IMG/VR virus record: IMGVR_UViG_3300042870_001966
Strand: one strand, 5' to 3'
Source: a virus
Lineage: Duplodnaviria > Heunggongvirae > Uroviricota > Caudoviricetes
DNA length: 64,000 bases
The stretch's first letter is position 1. Each line of letters opens with the position of its first letter. Shown piece after piece: positions 3,451-50,098 of the stretch. Made by a program: the position numbers and the translations under genes. The notes beneath the pieces are model-generated. The model was not told the origin of the DNA. It was given only the letters and a program-made list of their open reading frames with translations, and searched no databases.

Positions 3451-4002
3451 ATGTTAAAATCATTTAGCCAATTCGTAACTGGATTATTTGAAAAGAAAGG
3501 AGACGCTCATAGTTATGGATGTGCAATGGTCTATTTCAATTTTCCAACAATGCCTGAACTGCATTCAAAAATAGATGAAGCAGATATCTACACAGAAGAG
3601 GGCGATCGTTCATACGGTCTTGAGGATGAACCTCATACAACTCTTTTATATGGACTTCATTCGGCAGATATTAATGACGCTAAGGTATTAGAGATATGTA
3701 AATCTAAACCAATCGGTCAACTGACTCTACATAATGCATCTCTATTTGAGAATGCTAAATACGATGTACTTAAGTTTGATGTAGAAAATCCAGTGTTGGC
3801 TGAGATTAATGCAGAACTTAGTAAGTTACCTCACACTACTGATTTCCCAGACTACCATCCACATGCAACAATCGGGTACCTAAAGCCTGGAACCGGCAAG
3901 AAATACGTTGACTTATTTAATGGTAATCGGCATGAAGTCGCTGCTCATAAAATAGTTTATTCAAAACCTGACGACAGTCGAATCGAAGAAGAATGGAATT
4001 AA
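3451..4002 (+). CDS. 2H phosphoesterase (LigT-like) with CTS-like N-terminus
   Basis: Two HxTx motifs (HTTL, HATI). N-terminus MLKSFSQFVTGLFE. Confidence 0.65.
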   Translation: MLKSFSQFVTGLFEKKGDAHSYGCAMVYFNFPTMPELHSKIDEADIYTEEGDRSYGLEDEPHTTLLYGLHSADINDAKVLEICKSKPIGQLTLHNASLFENAKYDVLKFDVENPVLAEINAELSKLPHTTDFPDYHPHATIGYLKPGTGKKYVDLFNGNRHEVAAHKIVYSKPDDSRIEEEWN

Positions 4003-6604: not shown

Positions 6605-7783
6605 TTATTGTGTATAGCCAGTCCGTAACAGATAAAAGCTAGTAGTTCCTCCATTAGTTGGTGTTGAAATAATCATTGATTGAACTCCTGGTATACTGGA
6701 GCGTAGATCACTTGTCCCGGAATTAATAGTTGTCCATTGAGCTGGCGTAAATATCCGATACGACGGATATGCATTTATCCAATTTGGAAATCTACCTGAA
6801 ATTTTACCGAATATGCAATAGGAATCCGTTACATTAAACCGAGTATCTTGATTAACGTCCATTGTATAATACAATTTAGAGCTTGGCATCACCGAGTATA
6901 ATAACATTTGAATAGGGTATTGAGCAGCAGTTGATATTGGATTACTAATAGTCAGATTTTCTAATCTAATTTGGAAATCATGGGACGCGTCATCTAAATT
7001 AGGTACCATTGAATATAGACCCAACGAATTAGTGTAATATGTTCCCTTTATGCTGAATGTAGTTTCCGGTGAAGCTGGTGTAAATCTAACTGAATAATTA
7101 GTTGCGCTCCATTGAGATGCATTCTTTCCACCGACTGGAACAACCGTTGACGAAGAAGTTGATATTAGACCGGCGGTCGCGTTATTACTACCACATAAAG
7201 GTTTTGAGGCATAATTTATATCTATTAAATTCGACGTTTCATATAGAATGAACTGAAATGTGTGTAGATTTGTTCTACACCCATAATGCGGAACTGCATT
7301 AAAAGAGACAGTCAACGATCTATTGGGCGATGTTCCTGATGTTACGTATCTGATGTTAGCTGATCCAGGAAATAAGTCCTCCCAATCCGCTAAAATTGCG
7401 TTTAATGGAGACCCTGCATTTGGAATAAAGGCTGCAGTATATCCAGTTGTTTGGCCCGAGCTAAACCCGATCCATCCATTTGATCCAACGTAAAATTGAG
7501 TATACGTATTTCCAAAGTAGGTAAAACTAAATCCTATATTAAATGGTCCATGTGTAGCATCGTCCGATGATGGAATTACGGTACCGGTTGTATAACTAGG
7601 AGAAGTCGGATAAGTAGGAAAAGTTACTTCATATTGAACAATCCTTTTGCCGTATAGCAAGACTGGTATATTTTGTAAGCCTTGACCATTAGCTCCATAA
7701 ACATATCCTGAATAAGTAAATGGTTGAGCATACACCGACCCTATAATCAATGTAGCAATTAGTGTGATGATAAACTTTCTCAT
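6605..7783 (-). CDS. secreted protein
   Basis: Signal peptide ..VYAQ. S/T/Y-rich. Confidence 0.5.
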   Translation of the reverse strand: MRKFIITLIATLIIGSVYAQPFTYSGYVYGANGQGLQNIPVLLYGKRIVQYEVTFPTYPTSPSYTTGTVIPSSDDATHGPFNIGFSFTYFGNTYTQFYVGSNGWIGFSSGQTTGYTAAFIPNAGSPLNAILADWEDLFPGSANIRYVTSGTSPNRSLTVSFNAVPHYGCRTNLHTFQFILYETSNLIDINYASKPLCGSNNATAGLISTSSSTVVPVGGKNASQWSATNYSVRFTPASPETTFSIKGTYYTNSLGLYSMVPNLDDASHDFQIRLENLTISNPISTAAQYPIQMLLYSVMPSSKLYYTMDVNQDTRFNVTDSYCIFGKISGRFPNWINAYPSYRIFTPAQWTTINSGTSDLRSSIPGVQSMIISTPTNGGTTSFYLLRTGYTQ

Positions 7784-10959: not shown

Positions 10960-12882
10960 TTATTTTTTTATGATTTTAGTAGAGTTAATTTGATCAACTG
11001 CCTGTAAAGAAGCAACGTATAATCCGCTAGTTAACTGATTAATATTGGAAGAGTATACGTATTTTCCAGCTGGCATGTCTTGATCAAGTATAACAAATTG
11101 TTCTGATCCGTTTAGGTCAACGATTACTAACTTAACCATTCCGCTATTCTTAACTGAGAAGTCAAAGCTTATCTCTCCAGTAGTTGGATTGGGAAATGCG
11201 GTAATTTCAAAGTTATCCAATTGACCAGAAGGTCCAGCCATTTTAGCAACGATTAAGATGCCGTTTGCTGCGGTGATTGATAAATCCCTAGATTGATTGT
11301 CTCCTGAGAATTTTCTAGAAGTATACAAAGGCGATGCCTCCCAATCAATTTGAGGTTTAAGTGCGATAAATCTCAATTTAAAAACTTCATAATTATCTGG
11401 AATCATGTAGCTTTTGTTAGCTGATGGATCGTAACCGGCCCATTCGATAATTCCGCCAGTTGGATTGAATGAAGACATCCACTGCATTGATTTAGCAGAG
11501 TTAGTAATGTCTTTAAATTCCAATAAGGTCTGATCGTATAACATTGCTAATTGAAGAGACGAAATATCCTTTCCTCCAGTTTTAACAGTAACCGGTATTT
11601 CTACTAGATTTCCTGAATTTACAGAAAGATTAGGAAGATTAACTTCAATTGAGCTCGTTGGAAAATCGTATTCAACTGTCATATCAATTACGTTTTCAGT
11701 TTGAGCTGGGGTTCCAGCCGGTGGATTGATCATTACTTCAATTGGCGTTAAACGAGCCATGTTGTAACCCGTACCGTTTGCATCTCCTGGAACAAGTACG
11801 TAATATTGAACTGAATCAGGTTGTCCTGGTAAAATGTCGTAGTAGAAGTTTGTTACTCCAGCATAAGTTGAAGTATAGTTAGTCGATGGAGATCCTGTGA
11901 TTGTTGTGTATTGGGCAGCAGTAAAGAACTTAACATCCTCAACGGCATTAGGCCATTCAGTGAATCTTCCAGCAATTCTACCAAATACTCCGTATGCATC
12001 AGTTATTGTTACGTTAGTTGAACCGTTAACATCTGCTGTATAGAAGTCGAATCCGGAAGGAGTCGCTGACCCTAACACCCATTGATTAATTAATTGAGCA
12101 TCTGCTGTTGATATAACGTTTCCTACCGTCATCGTATCACCTTTAATTGCAAGGCGTACATCATAATAAGTAGTATCAATAATTTCGCTAAATGCAAAAT
12201 TTCCACTTAGGTCAGTTACGTACGTATCATGAGTTCCCCAAGTACCTCCAGCTTTTACCTTTTTCTCAAGAGCTAAAGTTAAGTTCTTTGCTCCAGTTCC
12301 AGTAACGTTTGTAAATTTACCATGGAAGTCTAAAGTAGGCTGTTCCCATACACCGCCGTAGCTATGCTTGCTTAGAGTAGTATCTAAACCTGTCTGAGAT
12401 GCAGCGAGTGTAGTAAAAGAAGCTGCGCCACTAAACGTAAGAGCACTGATTGAGGGTAACGCATAAAACGATGCAGCTGCAACGTGAGTAAAGGTTATTT
12501 CAAAGGTTTCACCGTCCGCTAGAGTATAAGTACTGCTGTTTCCAGTATACACTAATGAAAGGGTTACGTAACCGGTAGCATTACTATCTACTGACTGTAA
12601 ATATAAGTTAGTAGGCGATCCAACTAGCGCAACTGATGCACTAGCAAATGCATCCTTATCGTAAAATATTCGAGTTTGAATACCTGTGTATTTTGAGATA
12701 GTTGCATTCTTTAGCGTGATTCTGGCTTTGGACTGACCTAGCGTACTTGTACCAACTTGATATGTCGTATCAATGATTGTCCAAATTCCTGCGCCTGGGG
12801 CAGGAGGTCCACTTTGAGCATAAACTCCAGTAGAGAGTGCGCACGTGACTAGTGCGAATAGAATAAAGATTATTTTTTTCAT
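10960..12882 (-). CDS. secreted protein with T9SS C-terminal sorting domain
   Basis: Signal peptide ..VYAQ. C-terminal FPNPTTGEISF...SGLYVASL...KIIKK matches the type-A T9SS C-terminal domain. Confidence 0.65.
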   Translation of the reverse strand: MKKIIFILFALVTCALSTGVYAQSGPPAPGAGIWTIIDTTYQVGTSTLGQSKARITLKNATISKYTGIQTRIFYDKDAFASASVALVGSPTNLYLQSVDSNATGYVTLSLVYTGNSSTYTLADGETFEITFTHVAAASFYALPSISALTFSGAASFTTLAASQTGLDTTLSKHSYGGVWEQPTLDFHGKFTNVTGTGAKNLTLALEKKVKAGGTWGTHDTYVTDLSGNFAFSEIIDTTYYDVRLAIKGDTMTVGNVISTADAQLINQWVLGSATPSGFDFYTADVNGSTNVTITDAYGVFGRIAGRFTEWPNAVEDVKFFTAAQYTTITGSPSTNYTSTYAGVTNFYYDILPGQPDSVQYYVLVPGDANGTGYNMARLTPIEVMINPPAGTPAQTENVIDMTVEYDFPTSSIEVNLPNLSVNSGNLVEIPVTVKTGGKDISSLQLAMLYDQTLLEFKDITNSAKSMQWMSSFNPTGGIIEWAGYDPSANKSYMIPDNYEVFKLRFIALKPQIDWEASPLYTSRKFSGDNQSRDLSITAANGILIVAKMAGPSGQLDNFEITAFPNPTTGEISFDFSVKNSGMVKLVIVDLNGSEQFVILDQDMPAGKYVYSSNINQLTSGLYVASLQAVDQINSTKIIKK

Positions 12883-17210: not shown

Positions 17211-17909
17211 ATGTTAATTAAAAATCAAACGCCATACCTTGGCAAAATTCAGTTGAAGTTCGAGAGATTTCCTCACTACACTGGCAAAACTAAATTAAAT
17301 AAGATCCACTTGGATCTGGGATTTACTAAGTTAGTAAGCCGAATCCGACCTGAAAGAGATTTGGAAGGTTGGGCTGTAAATCCTGAATGTATTAAACAAA
17401 TTGAAGCAACTACTGGGCTAAAGGTAGGAGTTCATAAGTTCGGACCAGACGATGAGTACTCATTACCCAATTCATGCATGAATCCAGACGGAGTTTACGT
17501 TGGATCAATTGAAGAAGGTTGGTGGTACTACAACAATGGCCTCAGAGCAACAAAGGGATCTCATCCTCATACTGCATGGAGTAAGAAGGCAAAGCAGTGG
17601 ATTGGTTATTCTCACCGTGCTTCTTGTGCATTCGGAAAAGGCGATAAACTATTTGATGCTAAATGGAAACCTGCTGAACAAGACCTTCCTCAATACGAAA
17701 AGTTCTACGGCAAGCACCTGGACTCGTATTATAAAGAGTGCGAAGAATGGGCAAAGAGTACCTCTGACCATAAAGCGTCAGAAGAAGAAATGACCCTTGC
17801 TGGTTGGGCAGTAGATCATATTCCTTTTAGACTACGTGGTGCTAAGACAATTCATTCGTATGAAGATGCTTACAAGGCAGCAGTTAACTTTGCAAAATAC
17901 GTATCGTAA
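17211..17909 (+). CDS. hypothetical protein
   Basis: ORF only. Confidence 0.5.
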   Translation: MLIKNQTPYLGKIQLKFERFPHYTGKTKLNKIHLDLGFTKLVSRIRPERDLEGWAVNPECIKQIEATTGLKVGVHKFGPDDEYSLPNSCMNPDGVYVGSIEEGWWYYNNGLRATKGSHPHTAWSKKAKQWIGYSHRASCAFGKGDKLFDAKWKPAEQDLPQYEKFYGKHLDSYYKECEEWAKSTSDHKASEEEMTLAGWAVDHIPFRLRGAKTIHSYEDAYKAAVNFAKYVS

Positions 17910-19602: not shown

Positions 19603-19678
19603 GGTGAGGTAGCTCAGATGGTAGAGCACAGGACTGAAAATCCTGGTGTCGGCGGTTCGATCCCGCCCCTCACCACCA
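19603..19678 (+). tRNA. tRNA-Phe(GAA)
   Basis: Cloverleaf fold; anticodon loop CTGAAAA; CCA encoded. Confidence 0.8.
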
Positions 19679-19756
19679 ACAAAAAAATGAATAAGAATAT
19701 GAAACGTAAACGCTAAAGGCCCAGTGACTCCCAGAGTTACAGGTCTAAATACACAG

Positions 19757-19830
19757 GTCTTCGTAGCTCAGTTGGTTAGAGCACCTCACTTTTAATGAGG
19801 GAGTCACAGGTTCGAGTCCTGTCGGGGACA
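19757..19830 (+). tRNA. tRNA-Lys(TTT)
   Basis: Anticodon loop CTTTTAA. Confidence 0.75.
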
Positions 19831-19836
19831 CTAAAC

Positions 19837-19913
19837 TGGAATATAGCTCAATTGGTTAGAGCATTCGCCTGATACGCGAAAGGTTATAGGTTCGATTCCT
19901 ATTATTCCAACCA
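19837..19913 (+). tRNA. tRNA-Ile(GAT)
   Basis: Anticodon loop CTGATAC; CCA encoded. Confidence 0.75.
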
Positions 19914-19918
19914 AACAT

Positions 19919-19996
19919 TGCGGGATGCGTAGAAAGCGGTTATCTCGTCAGTCTCATAAGCTGAAGTTCCCGGTTCGAGTCCGGGTCCCGCAACCA
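19919..19996 (+). tRNA. tRNA-Met or Ile2 (CAT), atypical D-arm
   Basis: Perfect acceptor TGCGGGA/TCCCGCA; anticodon loop CTCATAA; CCA encoded. Confidence 0.6.
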
Positions 19997-20005
19997 AAAG
20001 AATAC

Positions 20006-20076
20006 ACGGATGTGGTGCAATGGTAGCATGCGGGTCTCCAAAACCCTAGATGGGAGTTCGAATCTCTCCGACCGTG
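20006..20076 (+). tRNA. tRNA-Trp(CCA)
   Basis: Anticodon loop CTCCAAA. One acceptor mismatch. Confidence 0.6.
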
Positions 20077-20173
20077 CAAATCTTTCGAAAGAAAGTGACT
20101 AAATTAAACCTAATGTGGTATAGTAATCATATAAGTTTAACAAGAGTTCTTTGACTTATTGGAGATTGAAAAT

Positions 20174-20244
20174 TGTCCTGTGGTGTAATGGCAGCACGTC
20201 TGGTTTTGGTCCAGAAGATCGAGGTTCGAATCCTTGCGGGACAA
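20174..20244 (+). tRNA. tRNA-Gln(TTG)
   Basis: Anticodon loop TTTTGGT. Confidence 0.7.
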
Positions 20245-20249
20245 CATAT

Positions 20250-20321
<72 letters not shown>

Positions 20322-20326
20322 CTAAT

Positions 20327-20432
20327 GATTAGATGGGCGTAATGCGGGATGGTACCCAAGTCCCGAACTCGAAAGAGGTAAGGTTGTCTACTCCGTCTTG
20401 CACGGTATCCGGTTCGAGTCCGGCTCTAATCA
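20327..20432 (+). tRNA. tRNA-like element, 106 nt, anticodon undetermined
   Basis: Perfect 7-bp acceptor GATTAGA/TCTAATC. Canonical T-arm TCCGG-TTCGAGT-CCGGC. The internal 72 nt do not fold as a standard D/anticodon arm. Confidence 0.4.
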
Positions 20433-20541
20433 CCCGGATCCATGCACGTCGAGCGCAAACCAATCGCTCTTCAGGTAGATTTGCATGGATAAACAACCCG
20501 TCACGGTATACCCACAGGGTAGGAGTGAACTGGAGAGAAAT

Positions 20542-20613
20542 GGTCCTGTAGTTAATCGGCTATAACGCCGCCCTGTCACGGCGGTATGCCGGGTTCGATT
20601 CCCGGTGGGACCG
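20542..20613 (+). tRNA. tRNA-Asp(GTC)
   Basis: Anticodon stem CCGCC/GGCGG, loop CTGTCAC. Confidence 0.8.
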
Positions 20614-20802
20614 CGAAAGTATATCAACAGAAGTCCGACTTGCACGGATGAAAGGAACCTTGGCTCCATGGGATTAGCTACCCAACCGGAGAGATATAAA
20701 TGACCCAAGGTACTCTGTTCAGGTCCCTGCTCTACTGTGCACAGTATCAGGTTATGGGGAACAAACCATAAGTAAAAACCGGAGCACGGTATACTTTTAT
20801 TT

Positions 20803-20874
20803 GGCCCGTTAGTCTATCGGTTAGGACACGCCCCTTTCACGGGTGAGAGACGAGTTCGATTCTCGTACGGGCTA
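20803..20874 (+). tRNA. tRNA-Glu(TTC)
   Basis: Loop CTTTCAC. Confidence 0.75.
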
Positions 20875-21020
20875 CTAAGAACAACGGTCTCTCCGGCCAA
20901 TGTGATGTCGACAATCACGGTCGGATCAAGAGTTCACCACCCTCAGCCTGGGCCCAGAGAAAACTCTGATGAAGCTGTTAAGATTGGAGCGAGACGGGTA
21001 CTCCAACGTTGTTCTTAAAT

Positions 21021-21097
21021 GGGCTGTTAGCTCAGTTGGCTAGAGCACCGCACTTGCACTGCGGGGGTCGAGAGTTCGAGTCTCTCACGGTCCACCA
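21021..21097 (+). tRNA. tRNA-Ala(TGC)
   Basis: Loop CTTGCAC; CCA encoded. Confidence 0.8.
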
Positions 21098-21102
21098 ACA
21101 TT

Positions 21103-21176
21103 GCCTCCTTAGCTCAGTTGGCCAGAGCGCCTCACTTGTAATGAGGATGTCGGCGGTTCGAATCCGTCAGGAGGCT
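21103..21176 (+). tRNA. tRNA-Thr(TGT)
   Basis: Perfect acceptor GCCTCCT/AGGAGGC; loop CTTGTAA. Confidence 0.8.
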
Positions 21177-21355
21177 CACATCGTATTAGGGTCGTGCCGC
21201 ATTTTGCCACGATACGAAATAGACTTGAGAGGATCAGAGGCGGCCGTGACTACCTCAAGTCGAAGTTAGATAGTGTCTCGGTACGCTCTGGTTAGTCGCA
21301 AGACTTTCTAACGACGAGGTCCCGGTGGGCAGAACGCGTCTGATCCCACCCACTT

Positions 21356-21431
21356 GCGGGAGTAGCTCAGTTGGTAGAGCGCAACCTTGCCAAGGTTGAG
21401 GTCGCCGGTTCGAACCCGGCCTCCCGCTCCA
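21356..21431 (+). tRNA. tRNA-Gly(GCC)
   Basis: Loop TTGCCAA; CCA encoded. Confidence 0.8.
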
Positions 21432-21434
21432 TAA

Positions 21435-21507
21435 GCGGATGTCGTATAATGGCTTATTACTCCAGCCTTCCAAGCTGGAGATGCGAGTTCGATTCTCGCC
21501 ATCCGCT
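21435..21507 (+). tRNA. tRNA-Gly(TCC)
   Basis: Loop CTTCCAA. Confidence 0.75.
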
Positions 21508-21588
21508 CGACCGGTGGCTCCCTTAATGGTTCGAGGCCGACCTCAAACATCGGTGATACGTCATACAGGGGGCGAAAGCGTATCAAAC

Positions 21589-21661
21589 AGTCCTTTAGCT
21601 CAGTTGGTAGAGCATCTGTTTTACATGCAGAGGGTCGTAGGTTCGAATCCTACAGGGACTA
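21589..21661 (+). tRNA. tRNA-Val(TAC)
   Basis: Loop TTTACAT. Confidence 0.75.
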
Positions 21662-21950
21662 CTATGAGCAAGAGATACTCAGTAAGATTGGTCGCATTCT
21701 TTAAAAAAGCGATGGTAGTGAAAAAGTCCTCGACCTTAATGGGGGATCGATTCGGGTAAACGTGAGCAAGACTCTGCCGCGCCGACGTAGAGAGTTGACA
21801 GGTTTTTATGTGGTAAGACACTAATGAAAAAGACTTATTGGGGGAGGACCGTATAGTCTAAGACGTCAATAAGGGATATGGTTCTCGAAACAGTCAGAGA
21901 AACCCGTTAAAATCCAGTCTTCGTACAAGTCTCAGTATGGAGCAAATTAT

Positions 21951-22027
21951 CGAGATGTTGGGGAGTCCGGTTACCCCGCCTGCTTTGGGAGCAGGAGAAC
22001 TCGCAGGTTCGAATCCTGCCATCTCGA
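21951..22027 (+). tRNA. tRNA-Pro(TGG)
   Basis: Loop TTTGGGA; 7-nt variable region. Confidence 0.65.
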
Positions 22028-22135
22028 CAAAAGAACCTTAGTAGAGGCTGACTCCACCAGCTAGGACGTAACGTTCAAGCCTAGCTGAAAGCACGCGCTT
22101 GCGCTGAAATGGTGGTCGAGGTTCTTTTATTTTAT

Positions 22136-22210
22136 TGGGTGTTAGCTCAGCGGTAGAGCTCTCGACTGTTAATCGAGTGGTCCCAGGTTCGAATCCTGGA
22201 CACCCAGCCA
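22136..22210 (+). tRNA. tRNA-Asn(GTT)
   Basis: Loop CTGTTAA; CCA encoded. Confidence 0.8.
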
Positions 22211-22348
22211 AGGTTGATTAGGGAATGATTGTGTCAATAGTTCGAGAGTGAATGCTGACTGACATAATCGGAGTTTGCAGGCATTCACCAGAGTAATGCT
22301 AATCGTAAAATGAGATGTCCACTGAACCATCTTCTCATTTCCTTACCT

Positions 22349-22435
22349 GCCGTAGCGCTGAAGTTGGAGAGTCAGGACAGACTGTAAATCTGTTGTCGTA
22401 AGGCTGAGTAGGTTCGAATCCTACCTGCGGCACCA
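22349..22435 (+). tRNA. tRNA-Tyr(GTA), type II
   Basis: AGACTGTAAATCTG anticodon arm identical to E. coli Tyr; CCA encoded. Confidence 0.75.
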
Positions 22436-22486
22436 AGTAGTTTTGAGGTGGGCGAATTCTACTCTAAAAAAATAATCCCTCCACCA

Positions 22487-22560
22487 GGACCTTTAGCTCA
22501 GTTGGTTAGAGCAGCGCACTCATAATGCGAAGGTCTCAGGTTCGAGCCCTGAATGGTCCA
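22487..22560 (+). tRNA. tRNA-Met or Ile2 (CAT)
   Basis: Loop CTCATAA; one acceptor mismatch. Confidence 0.65.
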
Positions 22561-22644
22561 CAAATTTTTTAGATTTTTTATCATCCGATTAAACCTAAAT
22601 CGATTTTTAATAGTATAGTAATAGTGTATCTTAATTTAAAACAA

Positions 22645-23584: not shown

Positions 23585-24454
23585 ATGGCGACTACTCCAT
23601 TTGCATACAACCCATCGCAAGCTACAATCTCAGGAGCTACTAATTTAGTAAATCTTGCAATAGGCGAGTCTGCTCAAGACTATTCAGCTCAGCCAGGCGG
23701 AGTTACTTGGTGGATGGGACCTGAAGATACAACCGGTTACTTAATTTGTAGACCTGTACCTGCAGGTAATCAGCCAACTCAATTAGGCGCAATCGGAACA
23801 GTTCGATTTGCCAGAAGTGCAGCTAAAACCGATCAATCTTTTCTAGACCTGGCGAATTATTTAAAGAGGGACTTGGGAGGATCTCCTAATTTAGCTAGCG
23901 CATCGGCTGCTCTTACTTGGTTAAATTCAAATGGATTTTGGACTTCATGGGTTCAGCCTTACGTTGCAGGTTTATATAAAACTACATACTCTGGGTATTT
24001 TGCAGATAATGTCAGTTTCTTTGCAACCGCAACGCCTCAAACATTCGGAGCAAATCCAGCTACTTCAGTACAAACTACTGTAATTACTGAACCGGGAACA
24101 GACGATGGATCAGATTTTAGTTGCCAATGGTTAGGTTATTTCAAACCAGCTACTACTGAAACTTATACATTTTACACATCAAGTGATGATGCATCGTATA
24201 TGTGGATAGGTGCAAATGCTCAGACCGGTTTCACTACAACAAATGCAACGGTTAATAATGGTGGATTACATGGGCCGGTAGAAGCATCAGGTACAGCATC
24301 ATTAACGGCCGGCGCGTATTATCCGGTCCGAATTCAATTTGGCGAACGCGGTGGAGGTGATGTACTAACATTTAACTACTCAACTCCGACTATCACTAAA
24401 ACGACTAATGTAACCGGATTAGTTTTCTATAATTCATCTACTAATAACTTCTAA
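23585..24454 (+). CDS. PA14-domain protein (putative carbohydrate-binding/structural)
   Basis: GYFKP..YTFYTSSDDASYMWIG..PVRIQFGERGGG PA14 pattern. Confidence 0.5.
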   Translation: MATTPFAYNPSQATISGATNLVNLAIGESAQDYSAQPGGVTWWMGPEDTTGYLICRPVPAGNQPTQLGAIGTVRFARSAAKTDQSFLDLANYLKRDLGGSPNLASASAALTWLNSNGFWTSWVQPYVAGLYKTTYSGYFADNVSFFATATPQTFGANPATSVQTTVITEPGTDDGSDFSCQWLGYFKPATTETYTFYTSSDDASYMWIGANAQTGFTTTNATVNNGGLHGPVEASGTASLTAGAYYPVRIQFGERGGGDVLTFNYSTPTITKTTNVTGLVFYNSSTNNF

Positions 24455-24483: not shown

Positions 24484-25149
24484 ATGATGAATGAATTTCA
24501 AAAGTACGCAATGAGCGAGCACGGGGTGTCCTCATTGAAATTAGATTATTACGGTAAACAAGTTGAGTCATCGATGACTCCTTATATTTTAGAGGAACGT
24601 GAAATGCGAGTTACTCAAATGGATATTTTCTCCAGATTAATGAGGGATCGTATTCTATGGGTCGCTGGACCAGTAAACGACTACATGTCAACTATTGTAC
24701 AGGCTCAGTTAATGTTCCTAGATTCTGTTGATAATTCAGATATCACAATGCACGTTGACTCTCCAGGAGGATCGGTTAAGTCTGGTCTATCAATGGTCGA
24801 CGTAATGGACTATATCAAAGCCGATATCCGAACCGTAAATACTGGCATGGCCGCATCGATGGGATCAGTGCTATTGGGCGCAGGAACAAAAGGCAAACGT
24901 AGTTCCCTAAGACACTCAACCACAATGCTGCACCAATCGTCTGGCGGTTTTAGCGGCAATATTCAGGATGCTGAAGTTGACTGGGCTGAATGGCAAAAAG
25001 TCAATCATGAACTTTTCGTTCTACTTGGTAAATACTGTGGTAAGAAAGCTGACCAAGTAAAGAAGGATGCAACCAGAGATTTCTGGTTAAATGCTGAAGA
25101 GGCAGTTAAGTACGGAATTATAGATCAAGTAATCACAAAGAAACCTTAA
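24484..25149 (+). CDS. clpP: ClpP-family serine protease
   Basis: SPGGSV...GMAASMG...HQSSGG catalytic triad context. Confidence 0.8.
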   Translation: MMNEFQKYAMSEHGVSSLKLDYYGKQVESSMTPYILEEREMRVTQMDIFSRLMRDRILWVAGPVNDYMSTIVQAQLMFLDSVDNSDITMHVDSPGGSVKSGLSMVDVMDYIKADIRTVNTGMAASMGSVLLGAGTKGKRSSLRHSTTMLHQSSGGFSGNIQDAEVDWAEWQKVNHELFVLLGKYCGKKADQVKKDATRDFWLNAEEAVKYGIIDQVITKKP

Positions 25150-30397: not shown

Positions 30398-30831
30398 TAC
30401 AGAATACACACAATAAAATCGGCGAGGGTAATCGACTCCTTGCGCAATTCATGGGAGGCACAATTGTCTCTAGTGAAACCTACGAAATGCCACACGGCTC
30501 AAACGGCAAAGGCGTCTTTGAAAAATGGGGTGGACTCTCTGGAATTCCCAGTCACGATCAGGAATTGGCTGCACTTGGAATATTTAGATATGAAACCTCA
30601 TGGAGCTGGATTTTTCCAGTAATCGAAAAGATCGAGAGTCTTGGTTTCTGCGTCAGCATTCACCGTAGAGGAATTCAAATTATTAAGTACGACAAGGATC
30701 GAAGATTTGAAGCGACTGACCTAATTATCGATGAAGACTTCTTAGATGATTATTCTGGAGATGTTAAGCGAATTGCTGCATGGGACTGTTGCGTTTCTTT
30801 TGTTGACTGGTACACAAAGAGGAGCCAATAA
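30394..30831 (+). CDS. hypothetical protein
   Basis: ORF only. Confidence 0.45.
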   Translation: MIQNTHNKIGEGNRLLAQFMGGTIVSSETYEMPHGSNGKGVFEKWGGLSGIPSHDQELAALGIFRYETSWSWIFPVIEKIESLGFCVSIHRRGIQIIKYDKDRRFEATDLIIDEDFLDDYSGDVKRIAAWDCCVSFVDWYTKRSQ

Positions 30832-31217
30832 TGGAATTAACGGGACCCTCTAAACTAGTAGTCGCATCCAGTCCAATACACGGACTTGGAGTATTCGCAA
30901 CGCAATCTATTAGCCCAGGCGAGATTATTGAAGAATGTCATTTCATAACATTCGATGCGACATCAGATGATCCTATTTTTAATGATTATCGATTCATAGT
31001 CGGCCGTTCTGAGAAATTAGGCTGCGTAGAGTATGGCGTTCTTCTTGGATTCGGAGGAATCTACAATCACAGTGAAACTCCAAATATAAATTGGAGACAT
31101 GATACTGAAAAGAATTGTTTTACGTTCTTTGCACTAGTCGATATTAATCCAGGAGACGAATTGTGCTCGTATTACGGAGGGCCTGAATATTGGAAATCAA
31201 TTGGTATGGAAATTTAG
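30831..31217 (+). CDS. SET-domain protein (putative lysine methyltransferase)
   Basis: GLGVFA..GE.I, NHSETPN, GDELCSYYG SET motifs. Confidence 0.6.
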   Translation: MELTGPSKLVVASSPIHGLGVFATQSISPGEIIEECHFITFDATSDDPIFNDYRFIVGRSEKLGCVEYGVLLGFGGIYNHSETPNINWRHDTEKNCFTFFALVDINPGDELCSYYGGPEYWKSIGMEI

Positions 31218-31291: not shown

Positions 31292-32725
31292 ATGACAGAA
31301 ATCATCACATCATCACTTATGTACGGACTACCGGCCTTAATAGGGGTAATCGTATTTTTTTATGCACTATCTCTACGTCGAATCGTGCCAACTAACGTAG
31401 TCCACATCGTTCAACGAGGAGACAAAACTGTTTCCTATGGCGTAGGTAAAGGCTCTAACGTTTATTATGAGTGGCCGAAGTGGTTACCTAAAATCGGAGT
31501 TATGGTCAGATCATTGCCAGTATCTAACTTTGATATTGACTTAGCTAAATATTCAGCGTATGATAAGGACCGTGTCCCTTTCGTAGTTGACGTTAAGGCA
31601 TTCTTCCACATTGCTGATACAAATAAAGCTGCCGAGAAAGTAGAATCATTTGACGAGTTGAAAAAGCAGCTGGAAAATGTAGTTCAAGGAGCAGTTCGTT
31701 CTATTTTAGCAAAGTCTAAATTGGAGGAAATTATGGAAGAACGATCTATCTTTGGCGAAAAATTTACTGAAAGTGTTAAAGTTGATTTATCTAATTGGGG
31801 AGTTGAGCCTATTAAAAATATCGAGTTAATGGATGTTAGAGATACTGACGGTTCGAGCGTTATTCACCAGATTATGGCTAAGCGAATGTCTGCGATTGAT
31901 ATGGAATCCAGAACTGAAGTTGCTAAAAACACTAAATTGGCAGAGCAGGCGGAACTAACTGCTCAACAAGAAATTGATGTAACTAAAGCAGAAACTCAGA
32001 AAATTGCAGGAGAGGCGCAAGCTCAATCAATACAGGCAATCGGTATTGCCAAAGCAGAGGCTACAAAAAAGGCAGGTATTGCAGAACAAGAGTCAATATC
32101 AGATATCGCTCAAGCTGAACGAGCTACTGCTGAACAGCAAATGGAGGTCGTTAAAGTTAATGAGATTAAGCAGGCTGAAATTGATAAGGAAAAGGCAATT
32201 ATTGCAGCTGAGCAACAAAAACGCAAAACTGAAATTGACGCAGAGGCTAATAAATTTAGAATTGAGACTGAGGCTTCTGCTACACTTGAAGCACAGATCA
32301 AAAATGCAGAAGGTGTTAAAACTCTGGGCCAAGCAGAAGCAGATATTATTAAAGCAAAGGGTATATCGCAGGCTGAATCCAAGAAAGCAATGGAGCTTGC
32401 TGGAGTAACTGCCCAAACAACCCTAGCAAAAGAGATTGGCGAAAACAAATCTTACCAAGAATACTTGATCAAAATTAGAGAAGTTGAAGTAACTCAAGTA
32501 GTCGGAGTTGCACAATACGAATCGATGGCAAAAGCAATGGCTGGAGCTGACTTGAAACTATTGGTAAATAGTGGAGACGTACACTCAGGAATTGGCAAGT
32601 TAAGCGACCTATTCACAGCTAAAGGAGGTTCACAGATTAACGGGCTTCTTGAATCATTGAAACAGACACCTGAAGGTAAAGGCTTACTGGCTATGCTTAA
32701 CAAGCTTACACCAGGCGCAGAATAA
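31292..32725 (+). CDS. SPFH/band-7 (flotillin-like) membrane protein with long coiled coil
   Basis: N-terminal TM helix, SPFH core, QAE/KAE-rich heptads. Confidence 0.65.
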   Translation: MTEIITSSLMYGLPALIGVIVFFYALSLRRIVPTNVVHIVQRGDKTVSYGVGKGSNVYYEWPKWLPKIGVMVRSLPVSNFDIDLAKYSAYDKDRVPFVVDVKAFFHIADTNKAAEKVESFDELKKQLENVVQGAVRSILAKSKLEEIMEERSIFGEKFTESVKVDLSNWGVEPIKNIELMDVRDTDGSSVIHQIMAKRMSAIDMESRTEVAKNTKLAEQAELTAQQEIDVTKAETQKIAGEAQAQSIQAIGIAKAEATKKAGIAEQESISDIAQAERATAEQQMEVVKVNEIKQAEIDKEKAIIAAEQQKRKTEIDAEANKFRIETEASATLEAQIKNAEGVKTLGQAEADIIKAKGISQAESKKAMELAGVTAQTTLAKEIGENKSYQEYLIKIREVEVTQVVGVAQYESMAKAMAGADLKLLVNSGDVHSGIGKLSDLFTAKGGSQINGLLESLKQTPEGKGLLAMLNKLTPGAE

Positions 32726-42428: not shown

Positions 42429-42498
42429 GGTCAGTTTGGTCGTGGAGGCCGTCAGGTCTGCAAAATCTGAGGAGTTGGTTCGATTCCAACATTGACCT
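42429..42498 (+). tRNA. tRNA-Cys(GCA)
   Basis: Loop CTGCAAA. Confidence 0.65.
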
Positions 42499-42506
42499 CA
42501 AAAACT

Positions 42507-42590
42507 GGAAGAGTAATTCAGCTGGCGCTGGACCTAGTCTTGAAAACTAGTGGTACCTTCGGGTATGGGGATCGATACCTCACTCTTCCG
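42507..42590 (+). tRNA. tRNA-Ser(TGA)-like, type II, non-canonical T-loop ATCGATA
   Basis: 8-bp acceptor. Anticodon arm CTAGT-CTTGAAA-ACTAG. Variable-arm hairpin with TTCG loop. Confidence 0.5.
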
Positions 42591-42605
42591 CTCGTTCTTT
42601 TACAT

Positions 42606-42683
42606 GGTAGACGTAGCTCAGTTGGTTAGAGCGCCTGATTGTGGTTCAGGAGGTCGTCGGTTCGATCCCGATCGTTTACCCCA
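42606..42683 (+). tRNA. tRNA-His(GTG) with encoded G-1
   Basis: Loop TTGTGGT. G-1 pairs with C73. CCA encoded. Confidence 0.75.
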
Positions 42684-42686
42684 ACT

Positions 42687-42762
42687 GCCTCTGTGGGTAA
42701 ACTGGTAAAGCCGCTTGACTTAGGATCAAGAGATTTTGTGGGTTCGAATCCCACCAGAGGTA
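42687..42762 (+). tRNA. tRNA-Leu(TAG)-like, type-I length (7-nt variable region)
   Basis: Anticodon arm CTTGA-CTTAGGA-TCAAG; T-arm GTGGG-TTCGAAT-CCCAC. Confidence 0.55.
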
Positions 42763-42769
42763 CAAAAAT

Positions 42770-42850
42770 GCTCCCGTGGTGAAACTGGTAAACACGCTCG
42801 GCTTAAGATCGAGTGCGCAATGCTTGTGGGTTCGAGTCCCACCGGGAGTA
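42770..42850 (+). tRNA. tRNA-Leu(TAA), type II
   Basis: Loop CTTAAGA; 12-nt variable region. Confidence 0.7.
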
Positions 42851-42855
42851 CTAAT

Positions 42856-42943
42856 GGAGAGTGAAGCAACAAGGTGTTGTCGCCGCCTGCTAAGCGAGCG
42901 GTTCCCGAAAGGGAATGGGGATCGAGACCTCCACTCTCCGCCA
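42856..42943 (+). tRNA. tRNA-Ser(GCT)-like, type II, non-canonical T-loop ATCGAGA
   Basis: Acceptor GGAGAGT/ACTCTCC plus CCA. Bulged anticodon stem, loop CTGCTAA. Variable-arm hairpin TTCCC-GAAA-GGGAA. Confidence 0.5.
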
Positions 42944-42944
42944 T

Positions 42945-43018
42945 AGTCCAGTAGCTCAGTGGAATAGAGCAACCGCCTTCTAAGCGGTAGGTCGCAGGTT
43001 CGAGTCCTGCCTGGATTA
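42945..43018 (+). tRNA. tRNA-Arg(TCT)
   Basis: Loop CTTCTAA. Confidence 0.75.
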
Positions 43019-43042
43019 CAAATTATTTAGTACAATATAGCT

Positions 43043-43273
43043 ATGGAAGAAATAACAAACGCAGAAAGAGAATTCATGTTCTATAAGATTGGAACAGCTG
43101 GATCGTTTCACACAGCCTTGATTCAGACAATTATGAAGGCTGATATTCGTAATCAGGCTAAGCTTGCACTAGGTTTTCCCGAAGATGTTCAAGTGGTTCA
43201 ACGTTTTCAAAACGAAAGTGGCTACTGGGAAGGTCTGCAAGAGCGCTGGAAAGCTGCACATAACCGAAACTAA
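43043..43273 (+). CDS. hypothetical protein
   Basis: ORF between tRNAs. Confidence 0.4.
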   Translation: MEEITNAEREFMFYKIGTAGSFHTALIQTIMKADIRNQAKLALGFPEDVQVVQRFQNESGYWEGLQERWKAAHNRN

Positions 43274-43282
43274 TTAGTACCT

Positions 43283-43355
43283 GCCCCGGTAGTTCAATGG
43301 ATCAGAACACACGGCTACGGACCGTGAGATGGGGGTTCGAATCCCTCCTGGGGTA
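43283..43355 (+). tRNA. tRNA-Arg(ACG)
   Basis: Loop CTACGGA. Confidence 0.7.
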
Positions 43356-43370
43356 CTTAACTTAATCAAC

Positions 43371-44519: not shown

Positions 44520-44658
44520 TCTTCTCGAGAAACTTTCTAAATTTTCTGAGTTAAATATTACTGGAACATAGAGCCTCGCTCTGTTCGTCTAGGGTTTACG
44601 AGCCCTTGAGTAATCGCGAAAGGTTACAAATAGATGAGCAAAAAATAACATAACTACT

Positions 44659-45465: not shown

Positions 45466-45533
45466 CATTAGTCCTGAGCGGGGCTCTAAATGTTCCAGTT
45501 ATACAGATAAATAAACTCAAATTATTCAAACAA

Positions 45534-45830: not shown

Positions 45831-45851
45831 AAAACTTTTCTTGCTAATCAA

Positions 45852-46244: not shown

Positions 46245-46254
46245 CGATTCATCA

Positions 46255-46300
46255 TTTTTTTTTTTTGAAGTCTCACTTTTGTGGGACTTTTTTTGTTTTT
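46255..46300 (+). terminator. rho-independent terminator
   Basis: T-run, GTCTCAC..GTGGGAC hairpin, T-run. Confidence 0.5.
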
Positions 46301-46337
46301 ATTAGTATATTATAAGTAATAAACAAAAAATATACTT

Positions 46338-47051: not shown

Positions 47052-47053
47052 AC

Positions 47054-49839: not shown

Positions 49840-50098
49840 ATACACAAAACTATCACTACTTGGACTATCTCCAGTTATTACGATCATACTAATGGTTGCT
49901 ATTGGAACTGTATTAGCTAGATCAAGAAACTCTAAAGAAGTTCCATTCGCGAGCTCTTCTAAAATTGACACAGTTTACGTTGAAAAGCGAGTTGAGGTTG
50001 AAGTAAAGCCTGACACCGTATATTTTATTAAACCTTGTAAAAAATCACATTGCGATACAGAATCAGTTAAACCCCCAAAAATAGACTCAATACAATAA
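49832..50098 (+). CDS. membrane protein
   Basis: N-terminal TM helix. Confidence 0.35.
   Translation: MTKYTKLSLLGLSPVITIILMVAIGTVLARSRNSKEVPFASSSKIDTVYVEKRVEVEVKPDTVYFIKPCKKSHCDTESVKPPKIDSIQ

What the first reader, a model, noticed from the sequence alone, without database searches (positions are those of the whole stretch)
24484..25149. Phage-encoded ClpP plus a separate ClpA/C-like double-AAA+ ATPase (50749..52731)
The genome carries a canonical ClpP (SPGGSV, GMAASMG, HQSSGG) and a 660-aa Clp ATPase with two complete nucleotide-binding domains. The ATPase lacks the N-terminal substrate/adaptor domain. A phage bringing its own unfoldase-protease pair could remodel the host proteome, process virion proteins including the CTS family, or degrade defence proteins. 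Stand-alone ClpP is fairly common in phages as a prohead protease. A dedicated ClpA/C partner is much less common.
Basis: partly seen in the sequence, partly recalled or inferred. Interest (0 to 1): 0.55.

Follow-up and report, generated by a model that had tools for sequence, protein, structure and literature searches.

The report
Jumbo-phage ClpC-like unfoldase plus ClpP
A roughly 271-kb phage of Bacteroidota carries its own ClpP peptidase and a ClpC-type unfolding motor that has lost its regulatory N-terminal domain but kept the loop that docks onto ClpP; this is a real but already-annotated kind of phage gene pair whose substrates remain unknown.

Summary
ClpP (24484..25149, 221 aa) has an intact Ser-His-Asp triad. 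The ATPase (50749..52731, 660 aa) has two complete AAA+ rings, a short ClpC-type M-domain and no Clp_N domain.

The ATPase carries F-GGG-IGF (residues 519-525) aligned on the VGF ClpP-docking tripeptide of B. subtilis ClpC, so it is ClpC-type, not ClpB-type.

Comparative evidence supports a working pair. In 47 of the 80 closest viral ClpP loci an NTD-less ClpC-type gene lies directly upstream on the same strand, and in some the stop and start codons overlap. None of 80 Bacteroidota clpP loci has such a neighbour.

The kind is not new. The exact proteins are in public assemblies annotated as ClpC and ClpP. At least 538 IMG/VR contigs carry relatives of the ATPase. Cultured jumbo phages (RaK2-like phages, Atu_ph07, phage G) have annotated Clp ATPase/ClpP sets.

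Two details are worth noting. The phage ClpP clade has a fixed, altered docking pocket (His62, Met48, Trp30, HQS) that is absent from host-type ClpPs. The same genome also encodes SmpB.

Substrates and function are untested. Interest is modest.

The parts
24484..25149 (+). ClpP peptidase, 221 aa, with a ~29-residue N-terminal extension of the Bacteroidota type
   Evidence: PF00574 E 5.6e-58. NF011091 aligns residues 2-220 to model positions 1-220 of 221, at 254 bits. Full-length alignment to solved ClpPs, best 3q7h at E 6.5e-49. Nearest cellular relatives are 80/80 Bacteroidota-type at 47-53% identity.
24856..24858 (+). Catalytic Ser125 (E. coli Ser97). The partners are His150 (nt 24931-24933, E. 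coli His122) and Asp199 (nt 25078-25080, E. coli Asp171).
   Evidence: Alignment to E. coli ClpP. That reference was verified identical to PDB 1tyf_A. The triad is invariant in 81/81 phage-clade ClpPs.
24751..24753 (+). His90, the equivalent of E. coli ClpP Tyr62 in the ATPase-docking pocket. It belongs to a clade-fixed pocket signature: Trp59 (= F30), Met77 (= L48), Thr88 (= Y60), His90 (= Y62) and Ser152 (= P124).
   Evidence: Phage clade: H62 81/81, W30 81/81, M48 81/81, T60 81/81, S/T124 81/81. Cellular Bacteroidota-type ClpPs: Y62 79/80, F30 80/80, L48 80/80, P124 80/80. Pocket residue list taken from the ClpAP cryo-EM preprint 10.1101/820209.
50749..52731 (+). ClpC-type double-ring AAA+ unfoldase lacking the Clp_N N-terminal domain, 660 aa
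   Evidence: Best solved match is B. subtilis ClpC/MecB at E 1.2e-225, as one continuous stretch from query 5-648 to ClpC 154-794. ClpB and ClpA match in two stretches. Nearest 50%-cluster representatives are 820-870 aa and align from their residue ~170-190.
50923..51147 (+). D1 ATPase core: Walker A GEPGVGKT (59-66), pore loop GTKYRG (101-106), Walker B ILFIDEIH (126-133)
   Evidence: Motif positions. These positions are invariant in the 18-sequence alignment.
51520..51702 (+). Short ClpC-type M-domain (about residues 258-318) with a UVR motif. Its aromatic tip is Tyr287 (nt 51607-51609), the equivalent of ClpC Phe436.
   Evidence: PF02151 UVR at 270-296. Gap-free alignment to ClpC 360-462. 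Y287 maps to F436. The tip is aromatic in 77/80 viral homologs.
51934..52278 (+). D2 ATPase core: Walker A GPTGVGKT (396-403), pore loop GYVGY (443-447), Walker B VVLLDEVEKA (464-473), sensor-1 TSN (508-510)
52306..52329 (+). ClpP-docking loop GGGIGFSS (520-527); the IGF tripeptide is residues 523-525 (nt 52315-52323)
   Evidence: Aligned on the VGF of B. subtilis ClpC. G-[ILV]-G-[FY] is present in 18/18 aligned relatives, with G524 invariant. The regex motif G-x-x-[ILVM]-G-[FY] was found after the D2 sensor-1 TSN in 76/80 viral homologs, and 3 of the other 4 carry it under the looser search.

Best explanation
The two genes encode the two halves of a phage-borne ClpC/ClpP-type ATP-dependent protease that works in the cytoplasm of an infected Bacteroidota cell.

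The 660-aa protein would form a two-tier AAA+ hexamer that unfolds proteins through its KYR (D1) and GYVG (D2) pore loops. It would dock through its six IGF loops into pockets on the ClpP tetradecamer, which degrades the threaded chain.

The motor has lost the N-terminal domain, which in cellular ClpC binds adaptors and phospho-arginine tags and helps hold the enzyme in a repressed resting state. The phage enzyme is therefore probably uncoupled from host adaptor control. It would select substrates through its pore (degron-type recognition such as ssrA-like tails) or through a phage factor that binds the retained M-domain.

Shown here: gene integrity, catalytic and docking motifs, ClpC-type architecture, loss of the N-domain, conserved linkage of the two genes in related phages, and Bacteroidota ancestry of ClpP.

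Inferred: physical assembly, de-regulated activity, substrate class, and benefit to the phage (proteome turnover or amino-acid recycling, quality control during massive phage protein synthesis, or removal of host factors).
For: (1) Motifs are intact. The ClpP triad is present. Both Walker A/B pairs, both pore loops and sensor-2 GARPLKR are present.

(2) The docking loop IGF aligns on ClpC VGF. It is conserved in the megaphage homologs and in essentially all viral homologs.

(3) Gene neighbourhood. 47 of the 80 closest IMG/VR ClpP loci (77-86% identity) have an NTD-less ClpC-type gene upstream on the same strand, 0-2.1 kb away, in at least five different arrangements. In L101 and L108 the ATPase stop overlaps the ClpP start. 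Among 80 cellular Bacteroidota clpP loci, 9 show a ClpX-like neighbour within 2.5 kb and none has a ClpC-type neighbour. The single two-ring neighbour (L223) is ClpB-like without the loop.

(4) In an NJ tree the window ATPase falls in an all-short clade with four operon-type ATPases. That clade is all-short in 26/40 bootstraps.

(5) Both genes co-occur in megaphages LR745206, LR756502 and LR756504 and in E. coli phage JNE01.

(6) Biochemical precedent. S. aureus delta-N ClpC has raised ATPase activity that ClpP stimulates further. Delta-N-ClpC-F436A degrades GFP-ssrA as well as MecA-activated wild type and is more toxic (PMC12583610).

(7) The same phage genome encodes a bona fide SmpB (150.7 bits against a cut-off of 130).
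Against: No experiment exists. The two genes are 25.6 kb apart in this genome and far apart in the megaphages, so linkage is not universal.

In S. aureus, delta-N ClpC alone did not degrade substrates unless the M-domain tip was also mutated. The phage protein keeps that aromatic tip (Tyr287). Constitutive activity is therefore not assured, and an unidentified activator may be needed.

The ClpP docking pocket departs from the canonical one (His62 and others), so its docking behaviour cannot be assumed.

ClpP is about 80% identical and the ATPase only about 55% identical between this lineage and the operon-type phages, so the two genes have not simply co-diverged.

In most operon-type loci a thymidylate-synthase-like gene lies between the two genes. 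The cluster is therefore not a dedicated operon everywhere.
Confidence: 0.7

Rival explanations
1. Mix-and-match with the host. The phage ATPase mainly drives the host ClpP, and/or the phage ClpP mainly serves host ClpX or ClpC. The phage genes would then boost or re-direct the host Clp system rather than form a self-contained machine.
For: The phage ClpP descends from Bacteroidota ClpP, including the N-terminal extension. The ATPase loop (FGxG[IV]GF) resembles that of the nearest full-length cellular relatives. Lak megaphages carry ClpP but show no ATPase match at E <= 1e-40, so a phage ClpP can exist without a phage two-ring partner.
Against: There is conserved physical linkage of phage clpC-type and clpP genes in 47/80 loci against 0/80 in cells. 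The phage ClpP pocket carries fixed, clade-specific changes (H62, M48, W30) that are absent from host-type ClpPs. That pattern fits a dedicated partner better than free exchange.
Confidence: 0.15
2. A morphogenesis role. ClpP is the prohead maturation protease, and the ATPase is a virion-assembly chaperone or translocase rather than a partner in general proteolysis.
For: ClpP-like proteases are common prohead proteases: PHROG head-maturation families hit at 1e-34 to 1e-8. Locus L012 shows a Bacteroidales-type ClpP directly upstream of a capsid-like gene. The ATPase lies four genes upstream of a gp13-like neck gene and 3.8 kb from the portal gene. [quoted passage not shown] Iyer et al. proposed assembly roles for phage ClpA and ClpX (PMC7824862). 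No other prohead protease was found in the 64-kb window.
Against: The protein scores 254 bits on a cellular ClpP equivalog model but only 70 bits on the ClpP-related head-maturation model, whose cut-off is 120. It keeps the full N-terminal gating region and the docking pocket. Its neighbours are a tRNA array, a PA14 protein, a kinase-like ATPase and a transglycosylase, not capsid or scaffold genes. In operon-type relatives it sits next to thymidylate-synthase-like genes. T4-like large aquatic phages of Bacteroidota with a ClpA-like core gene carry a separate gp21-type prohead protease (PMC12619734). That point rests on analogy and was not verified for this genome.
Confidence: 0.1
3. The ATPase is a ClpB-, ClpG- or ClpL-type stand-alone disaggregase unrelated to ClpP.
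For: The top NCBIfam score is to the ClpB model TIGR03346 (839 bits), and ClpG and ClpK models also hit. All of these are below their cut-offs.
Against: The IGF docking loop is present and conserved. The M-domain has ClpC length, and ClpB aligns only in two pieces. The single ClpB-like neighbour seen in a cellular locus (L223) lacks the loop, which shows the motif discriminates.
Confidence: 0.03

Closest known systems
ClpC-ClpP protease of Firmicutes and Actinobacteria (B. subtilis ClpC/MecB, S. aureus ClpC, M. tuberculosis ClpC1)
   Same: Two AAA+ rings, a short coiled-coil M-domain with a UVR motif and an aromatic tip, and a [VIL]GF docking loop after the D2 sensor-1. About 53% identity over ClpC residues 154-794.
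   Different: It lacks the whole ~150-residue Clp_N domain that binds MecA, McsB and phospho-arginine and anchors the resting state (PMC12583610). The partner ClpP has His rather than Tyr at pocket position 62. It is encoded by a phage of Bacteroidota.
Engineered delta-N ClpC variants (S. aureus delta-N-ClpC and delta-N-ClpC-F436A; delta-N ClpC1 constructs in PDB 9if4 and 8ycx)
   Same: The same domain content as the phage protein. Delta-N raises basal and ClpP-stimulated ATPase activity and, with an M-domain tip mutation, gives adaptor-independent degradation of pore-recognised ssrA substrates.
   Different: Those are laboratory truncations. Delta-N alone was not proteolytically active. The phage protein is a natural, widely conserved truncation that keeps the M-domain tip (Tyr287).
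Clp ATPase plus ClpP sets of cultured jumbo phages (Agrobacterium phage Atu_ph07; RaK2/PBECO4/GAP32-like phages; E. coli phage vB_EcoM_JNE01; Bacillus phage G ClpX-ClpP)
   Same: Phage-encoded unfoldase together with ClpP, noted in genome papers (PMC6102473, PMC7824862, PMC12484599). The two-ring homologs are 37-41% identical and also short.
   Different: Those are ClpA- or ClpX-like, from phages of Proteobacteria and Firmicutes. None has been characterised biochemically in the searchable literature. The present pair is ClpC-type with an M-domain and derives from Bacteroidota.
Natural N-domain-less Hsp100 isoforms (E. coli ClpA65, ClpB79/ClpB-delta-N made from internal starts); recalled from my own knowledge, not tested here
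   Same: Two-ring Hsp100 proteins without the N-domain exist naturally and alter substrate choice.
   Different: Those are co-expressed with the full-length form from the same gene. Here the truncated form is the only product of the gene.
ClpP-related prohead maturation proteases (NCBIfam NF045542; PHROGs 94, 2976, 133)
   Same: Same fold and the same Ser-His-Asp chemistry. The phage ClpP hits these families weakly.
   Different: It scores far better on cellular ClpP models, keeps the N-terminal gating region and docking pocket, and is not next to capsid or scaffold genes.

Membership tests
ClpP (peptidase family S14, Pfam PF00574) | Sequence match to the family model above its curated threshold | tested here: met
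   196.3 bits against a cut-off of 20.2, E 5.6e-58, covering model positions 5-181 of 182.
ClpP (peptidase family S14, Pfam PF00574) | Ser-His-Asp catalytic triad (E. coli S97, H122, D171) | tested here: met
   Ser125, His150 and Asp199 align to the triad. The triad is invariant in 81/81 clade members. The reference was verified against PDB 1tyf.
ClpP (peptidase family S14, Pfam PF00574) | Canonical hydrophobic docking pocket (L23, L48, F49, A52, Y60, Y62, F82, I90, M92, F112, L114, L189) | tested here: inconclusive
   L23, F49 and L114 are kept. Y62H, L48M, Y60T, I90V and L189I are phage-clade specific. A52S, M92T and F112S are shared with host Bacteroidota ClpPs. The pocket exists, but its chemistry is altered and function cannot be judged from sequence.
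ClpP (peptidase family S14, Pfam PF00574) | NCBIfam equivalog-level identification as cellular ClpP | tested here: not met
   The best model, NF011091, gives 254.4 bits against a cut-off of 361; TIGR00493 gives 192 against 308.6. The protein is a diverged ClpP, not a typical cellular ortholog.
ClpP (peptidase family S14, Pfam PF00574) | Assembly into a double-heptamer chamber | not testable with these tools
   Only monomer prediction is available. The handle region and the R-D pair (TRD, 197-199) are present in the alignment.
ClpC subfamily of class-I Hsp100/Clp ATPases | Two AAA+ modules with intact Walker A/B motifs and pore loops | tested here: met
ClpC subfamily of class-I Hsp100/Clp ATPases | Short (about 60-residue) coiled-coil M-domain with a UVR motif inserted in D1 | tested here: met
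   PF02151 at 270-296. Gap-free alignment to B. subtilis ClpC across residues 360-462. Tip residue Tyr287 equals Phe436.
ClpC subfamily of class-I Hsp100/Clp ATPases | ClpP-docking [IVL]-G-[FL] loop in D2 | tested here: met
   IGF at 523-525 aligns on ClpC VGF and is conserved in relatives.
ClpC subfamily of class-I Hsp100/Clp ATPases | N-terminal Clp_N repeat domain (adaptor and phospho-arginine binding) | tested here: not met
   There is no Clp_N hit. The protein starts 12 residues before the conserved TPMLD entry to D1, whereas full-length relatives have 170-190 further residues. It is therefore ClpC-like in its core but not a complete ClpC.
ClpC subfamily of class-I Hsp100/Clp ATPases | Adaptor-dependent activation (MecA, McsB) | not testable with these tools
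   No MecA-, ClpS- or McsB-like gene was recognised in the parts of the window that were scanned. Many small ORFs remain unannotated.
ClpB/Hsp104 disaggregases | Long (about 120-residue) M-domain and no ClpP-docking loop | tested here: not met
   ClpB structures align only in two stretches around a shorter M-domain. The docking loop is present. TIGR03346 gives 839 bits, below its cut-off of 1232.
ClpA | No M-domain, an IGL loop, and equivalog-level score | tested here: not met
   An M-domain is present. TIGR02639 gives 737.6 bits, below its cut-off of 993. ClpA structures score lower than ClpC (534 against 754 bits).
ClpP-related prohead maturation protease (NF045542) | Model score above cut-off and location next to capsid or scaffold genes | tested here: not met
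   70.3 bits against a cut-off of 120. Neighbours are a tRNA array, PA14, AAA_33 and SLT genes.

The most novel reading that the evidence does not exclude
The phage clade has evolved a host-insulated protease. The fixed pocket changes in its ClpP (His62, Met48, Trp30, which are absent from 80/80 host-type ClpPs) together with the uniform FGxG[IV]GF loop of the NTD-less ClpC would make the pair orthogonal to the host ClpX/ClpC/ClpP system. With the N-domain gone, the motor would take pore-recognised degrons. With the phage's own SmpB boosting trans-translation, the module would channel ssrA-tagged or otherwise unprotected host proteins into degradation during infection, for amino-acid supply or removal of host factors. 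Recurrent, independent loss of the N-domain in several phage ClpC lineages would be the evolutionary signature of that strategy.
Probability: 0.15. Interest if true: 0.7.

Novelty: new member of a known kind. Interest (0 to 1): 0.35.

Why it matters
If the pair works as inferred, large phages of Bacteroidota bring a complete ATP-dependent protease that lacks the domain through which cells keep ClpC in check. That would be a natural counterpart of the de-regulated ClpC mutants and of the antibiotic-activated ClpC1 that are toxic to bacteria.

It would add regulated (or deliberately unregulated) proteolysis to the list of host processes that jumbo phages replace rather than borrow.

The clade-fixed His62 pocket variant offers a simple, testable handle on how ClpP pockets and IGF-type loops determine partner specificity.

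The practical value today is modest, for three reasons. The genes are already annotated as ClpC and ClpP in public data. Similar pairs are known in cultured jumbo phages. Nothing here identifies substrates.

Tried and rejected
(1) Read-through fusion of the upstream 207-aa ORF (50098..50721, same frame) to the ATPase as a replacement N-domain. Rejected: three in-frame TAA stops lie in the 27-nt spacer, the ORF has no Pfam or PHROG hit, and it is not conserved next to the ATPase in LR745206, LR756502 or LR756508.

(2) A second ClpP paralog in the window (the 221-aa ORF 58216..58881 has the same length). No similarity was found and it has no family hit.

(3) Near-identical DNA in the phage collection. 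None was found for window 44000-64000.

(4) Local synteny with megaphages. Only the two genes themselves are shared.

(5) A conserved third component. Two families recur between the ATPase and ClpP in operon-type phages. One is thymidylate-synthase-like and the other is a ~100-aa family with no Pfam hit. Neither has a homolog in the window, with best E above 0.5. They cannot be claimed as part of this system.

(6) A tmRNA gene to accompany SmpB. None was found in the window or in L174 by ARAGORN or by Rfam at gathering thresholds.

(7) Covariation between the ATPase loop and the ClpP pocket. Only a weak signature was seen: Gly before the hydrophobic residue in 68/71 short forms against 21/47 full-length forms. 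This is not decisive.

(8) F112S and M92T as phage-specific pocket changes. Rejected: both are typical of host Bacteroidota ClpPs.

(9) Walking the genome beyond the window. Two of four extra look-ups found no exact protein on record, so the capsid and prohead-protease region of the 271-kb genome was not seen.

(10) Literature phrases such as 'phage-encoded ClpP', 'phage-encoded ClpC' and 'phage-encoded ClpX' returned no papers.
Full report
**What is in the sequence**

The window has 38.7% G+C, about 98 mostly co-directional ORFs and 26 tRNA genes. It has no near-identical DNA in the phage collection.

The ORF at 24484..25149 (+) encodes a 221-aa protein. It matches Pfam CLP_protease at E 5.6e-58 and carries the quoted motifs SPGGSV (93), GMAASMG (121) and HQSSGG (150).

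The ORF at 50749..52731 (+) encodes a 660-aa protein. Its domains are AAA (D1), AAA_lid_9, a UVR motif (270-296), AAA_2 (D2) and ClpB_D2-small, with no Clp_N domain. Walker A/B, both pore loops and sensor-2 are intact.

**The genome it comes from**

Both exact proteins are already in public assemblies, on independent contigs of 271.0-271.4 kb. The element is therefore a jumbo phage of about 271 kb.

The window and its flanks encode a portal protein (56525..58207, -), a gp13-like neck protein (54471..55211), family-B DNA polymerase, primase, helicase, topoisomerase II subunits and a tRNA array.

A 640-aa protein at 10960..12882 (-) carries a Por_Secre_tail domain, the T9SS sorting domain. The 80 nearest cellular ClpPs are all Bacteroidota-type. 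Both facts point to a Bacteroidota host.

The closest relatives in the curated phage collection are 480-640-kb 'uncultured phage' megaphages and the Lak phages, at 43-66% identity for ClpP and 45-59% for the ATPase.

**Is the ATPase ClpC-like, and can it dock on ClpP?**

The best solved-structure match is B. subtilis ClpC/MecB (E 1.2e-225). The alignment is a single stretch from ClpC residue 154 to 794 and runs without gaps through the M-domain. ClpB and ClpA align only in two pieces and score lower.

In that alignment the phage IGF (residues 523-525, in FGGGIGFSS) lies on the VGF tripeptide of ClpC. That position, after the D2 sensor-1 TSN, is where ClpP-binding Hsp100 proteins carry their docking loop. 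G-[ILV]-G-[FY] is present in all 18 aligned relatives, in the three megaphage homologs and in nearly all of 80 viral-contig homologs.

**The missing N-domain**

The protein begins 12 residues before the conserved 'TPMLD...' entry into D1. The nearest 50%-identity cluster representatives are 820-870 aa and align from their residue ~170-190.

The truncation is not an ORF-calling artefact. The upstream 207-aa ORF is in the same frame but is separated by three TAA stops. The top 120 database relatives (78-100% identity) are all 630-667 aa.

N-domain-less forms dominate among viral contigs. About 60 of the best 80 are 657-730 aa, and at least 538 contigs carry relatives.

In a neighbour-joining tree the short forms fall into several groups interleaved with full-length forms. 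That pattern hints at repeated N-domain loss, but support is weak: the window-containing clade of 18 is all-short in 26/40 bootstraps.

**Is ClpP a true ClpP?**

It aligns over its full length with solved ClpPs, best at E 6.5e-49. Against E. coli ClpP it has Ser125, His150 and Asp199 at the triad positions.

Its N-terminal ~29-residue extension matches the Bacteroidota-type model NF011091 end to end. It also matches the ClpP of a bacterial tig-clpP-clpX contig (L011).

It scores 254 bits on that cellular model but only 70 bits on the ClpP-related head-maturation model, whose cut-off is 120. All cellular equivalog cut-offs are missed, so it is a diverged ClpP.

**Evidence that the two genes work together**

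The IMG/VR scan with ClpP returned 80 loci at 75-95% identity. In 47 of them a ClpC-type gene (52-57% identical to the window ATPase) lies directly upstream on the same strand. The four complete ones are 657-674 aa from the first ATG and carry a GxGIGF loop.

The spacing takes at least five forms. In L101 and L108 the stop and start codons overlap. In other loci one to three genes intervene. The ATPase is by far the most frequent window gene found near this ClpP; the next most frequent appears in 9 loci.

The 80 cellular Bacteroidota clpP loci differ. Nine show a ClpX-like neighbour within 2.5 kb and none has a ClpC-type neighbour. The one two-ring neighbour is ClpB-like and lacks the loop.

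Both genes also co-occur, though far apart, in megaphages LR745206, LR756502 and LR756504 and in E. coli phage vB_EcoM_JNE01.

In this window the genes are 25.6 kb apart. Linkage here has been lost or was never present.

**A clade-specific docking pocket**

I used the pocket residue list from the ClpAP cryo-EM work (10.1101/820209). At these positions the 81 phage-clade ClpPs and the 80 Bacteroidota ClpPs differ as follows.

| E. coli position | Phage clade (n=81) | Bacteroidota cellular (n=80) |
|---|---|---|
| 62 | His 81/81 | Tyr 79, Phe 1 |
| 48 | Met 81/81 | Leu 80 |
| 30 | Trp 81/81 | Phe 80 |
| 60 | Thr 81/81 | mostly Gln or Ser |
| 124 (HQx) | Ser 79, Thr 2 | Pro 80 |

Ser112 and Thr92 are shared with the hosts and are not phage-specific. 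The other megaphage and Lak ClpPs keep Tyr62.

The meaning is unknown. A re-tuned partner specificity is an attractive but untested reading. I found no decisive covariation in the ATPase loop.

**How it most likely works**

I infer a self-contained ClpC/ClpP-type protease.

The 2025 EMBO J study of S. aureus ClpC shows that the N-domain stabilises the repressed resting state and couples activation to adaptors and phospho-arginine. Delta-N ClpC has a higher ATPase activity that ClpP stimulates further. Delta-N combined with the M-domain tip mutation F436A degrades GFP-ssrA (a pore-recognised substrate) as efficiently as the adaptor-activated wild type, and it is more toxic (PMC12583610).

Delta-N alone was not proteolytically active, however. 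The phage protein retains the aromatic tip (Tyr287 = Phe436; aromatic in 77/80 viral homologs). The phage enzyme is therefore probably freed from host N-domain-based control, but it may still need an M-domain-binding activator or may self-regulate through M-domain contacts. That step is inference.

In passing I found that the same genome encodes a bona fide SmpB about 10 kb upstream of the window. No tmRNA was seen in the 78 kb examined. This makes ssrA-type substrates a natural candidate, but it is only circumstantial.

**Rivals**

(a) Mixing with host partners cannot be excluded. It is not mutually exclusive with the main explanation, but the conserved linkage and the altered pocket argue for a dedicated pair.

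(b) A prohead-protease and assembly-chaperone role. Points in favour: L012, where a Bacteroidales-type ClpP sits next to a capsid-like gene; the ATPase's position near the neck and portal genes; and phage G ClpXP being found in virions. Points against: the model scores, the retained gating and docking regions, and the genomic context. I could not see the capsid module of this genome, so this rival is not closed.

(c) A ClpB-type disaggregase is disfavoured by the loop and by the M-domain length.

**Comparison with what is known, and novelty**

Clp ATPases with ClpP have been noted in the following:
- Atu_ph07, which encodes ClpX, ClpA, ClpB, ClpP and ClpS, and RaK2-like phages (PMC6102473);
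- a survey of 224 jumbo phages (PMC7824862);
- phage G (PMC12484599);
- bS21-encoding phages (PMC9723584);
- the 'moraphages' of Bacteroidota, where a ClpA-like VOG is near-core alongside a separate prohead protease (PMC12619734).

Relatives of this very protein are deposited as 'ClpC' (JGI) and as 'clpA ... [uncultured Caudovirales phage]' (CAB4218964.1).

The Al-Shayeb 2020 main text does not mention Clp at all. I found no functional study of any phage-encoded two-ring Clp ATPase/ClpP pair in the searchable library.

The finding is thus a new member of a known, annotated but uncharacterised kind. Two fresh details come out of this work: systematic N-domain loss with a retained docking loop and M-domain tip, and the fixed His62 pocket variant.

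**Verdict**

The interpretation (own unfoldase-protease pair) is supported. The claimed rarity is overstated. Function and substrates remain unknown. Interest is 0.35.

Noticed in passing
L174 110-532 (JGI 3300043438 contig Ga0453121_0000161), about 9.9 kb upstream of window position 217: The same phage genome encodes a bona fide SmpB (NF003843, 150.7 bits against a cut-off of 130). No tmRNA gene was found in the window or this flank by ARAGORN or by Rfam at gathering thresholds.
   Followed up: partly
window 10960..12882 (-) and 6605..7783 (-): A 640-aa protein has Cohesin and Por_Secre_tail (T9SS C-terminal sorting) domains. A 392-aa paralog shares 40% identity with it over 115 residues. They imply a Bacteroidota host.
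   Followed up: partly
window 42507..42589 (+): Rfam tRNA-Sec model hit at 47.9 bits, just above its gathering score of 47. It lies between the tRNA-Cys and tRNA-His genes and was not called by ARAGORN. It may be a long-variable-arm or unusual tRNA.
   Followed up: no
window 19603..22561 and 42429..43356: There are two tRNA arrays, 26 tRNA genes in 64 kb, including three tRNA-Met(CAT). ClpP lies 1.9 kb downstream of the first array, and in close relatives it also sits beside tRNA genes.
   Followed up: no
L101-L170 (IMG/VR loci), for example L118 2675..2980 and L118 1822..2685: In operon-type relatives a ~100-aa family with no Pfam hit sits immediately upstream of ClpP in 21 loci. It has a conserved C-terminal E-E-[YF]-E-x-C-x-x-I-K motif reminiscent of a UVR motif. 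A thymidylate-synthase-like gene lies between it and the ATPase in 24 loci. Neither family has a homolog in the window.
   Followed up: partly
L012 149..952 and 966..2207 (MT835925.1): A Bacteroidales-type ClpP with a C-terminal extension (267 aa, full N-terminal region, intact triad) lies directly upstream of a 413-aa gene that by eye resembles an HK97-type major capsid protein (no family search was run). It looks like a cellular-type ClpP recruited as a prohead protease or scaffold fusion.
   Followed up: no
window 24484..25149 versus 50749..52731, compared with L101-L170: Divergence is discordant. ClpP is 77-86% identical between this lineage and the operon-type phages, but the ATPase is only 52-57% identical. 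The ATPase may evolve much faster, or it may have been exchanged.
   Followed up: partly
window 3451..4002 (+) and 17211..17909 (+): Candidate anti-defence genes. One is a weak 2H-phosphoesterase/Acb1 (anti-CBASS) match at 25 bits, below the cut-off of 27. The other is a Tad6-family hit (PF25188) in the precomputed annotation.
   Followed up: no
window 944..2086 (+), 30831..31217 (+), 31292..32725 (+): Unusual cargo for a phage: a sulfate-permease-family membrane protein (PF00916, E 9e-40), a SET-domain protein and a Band_7/stomatin-family protein.
   Followed up: no
window 23585..24454 (+): A PA14/GLEYA carbohydrate-binding domain protein lies immediately upstream of ClpP. It is conserved next to ClpP only in the closest relatives (7 of 80 loci).
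   Followed up: no
phage collection hits H5-H30 (for example OR846854 'Listeria phage LM 4-11-1' and the MT83xxxx 'Bacteriophage sp.' contigs) and L011: Many short 'phage' records that match the two proteins appear to be bacterial DNA, which inflates counts of phage Clp genes in that collection. L011 is a tig-clpP-clpX operon. The Listeria, Staphylococcus and Enterococcus records match at about 50-53% identity, like host ClpC.
   Followed up: partly
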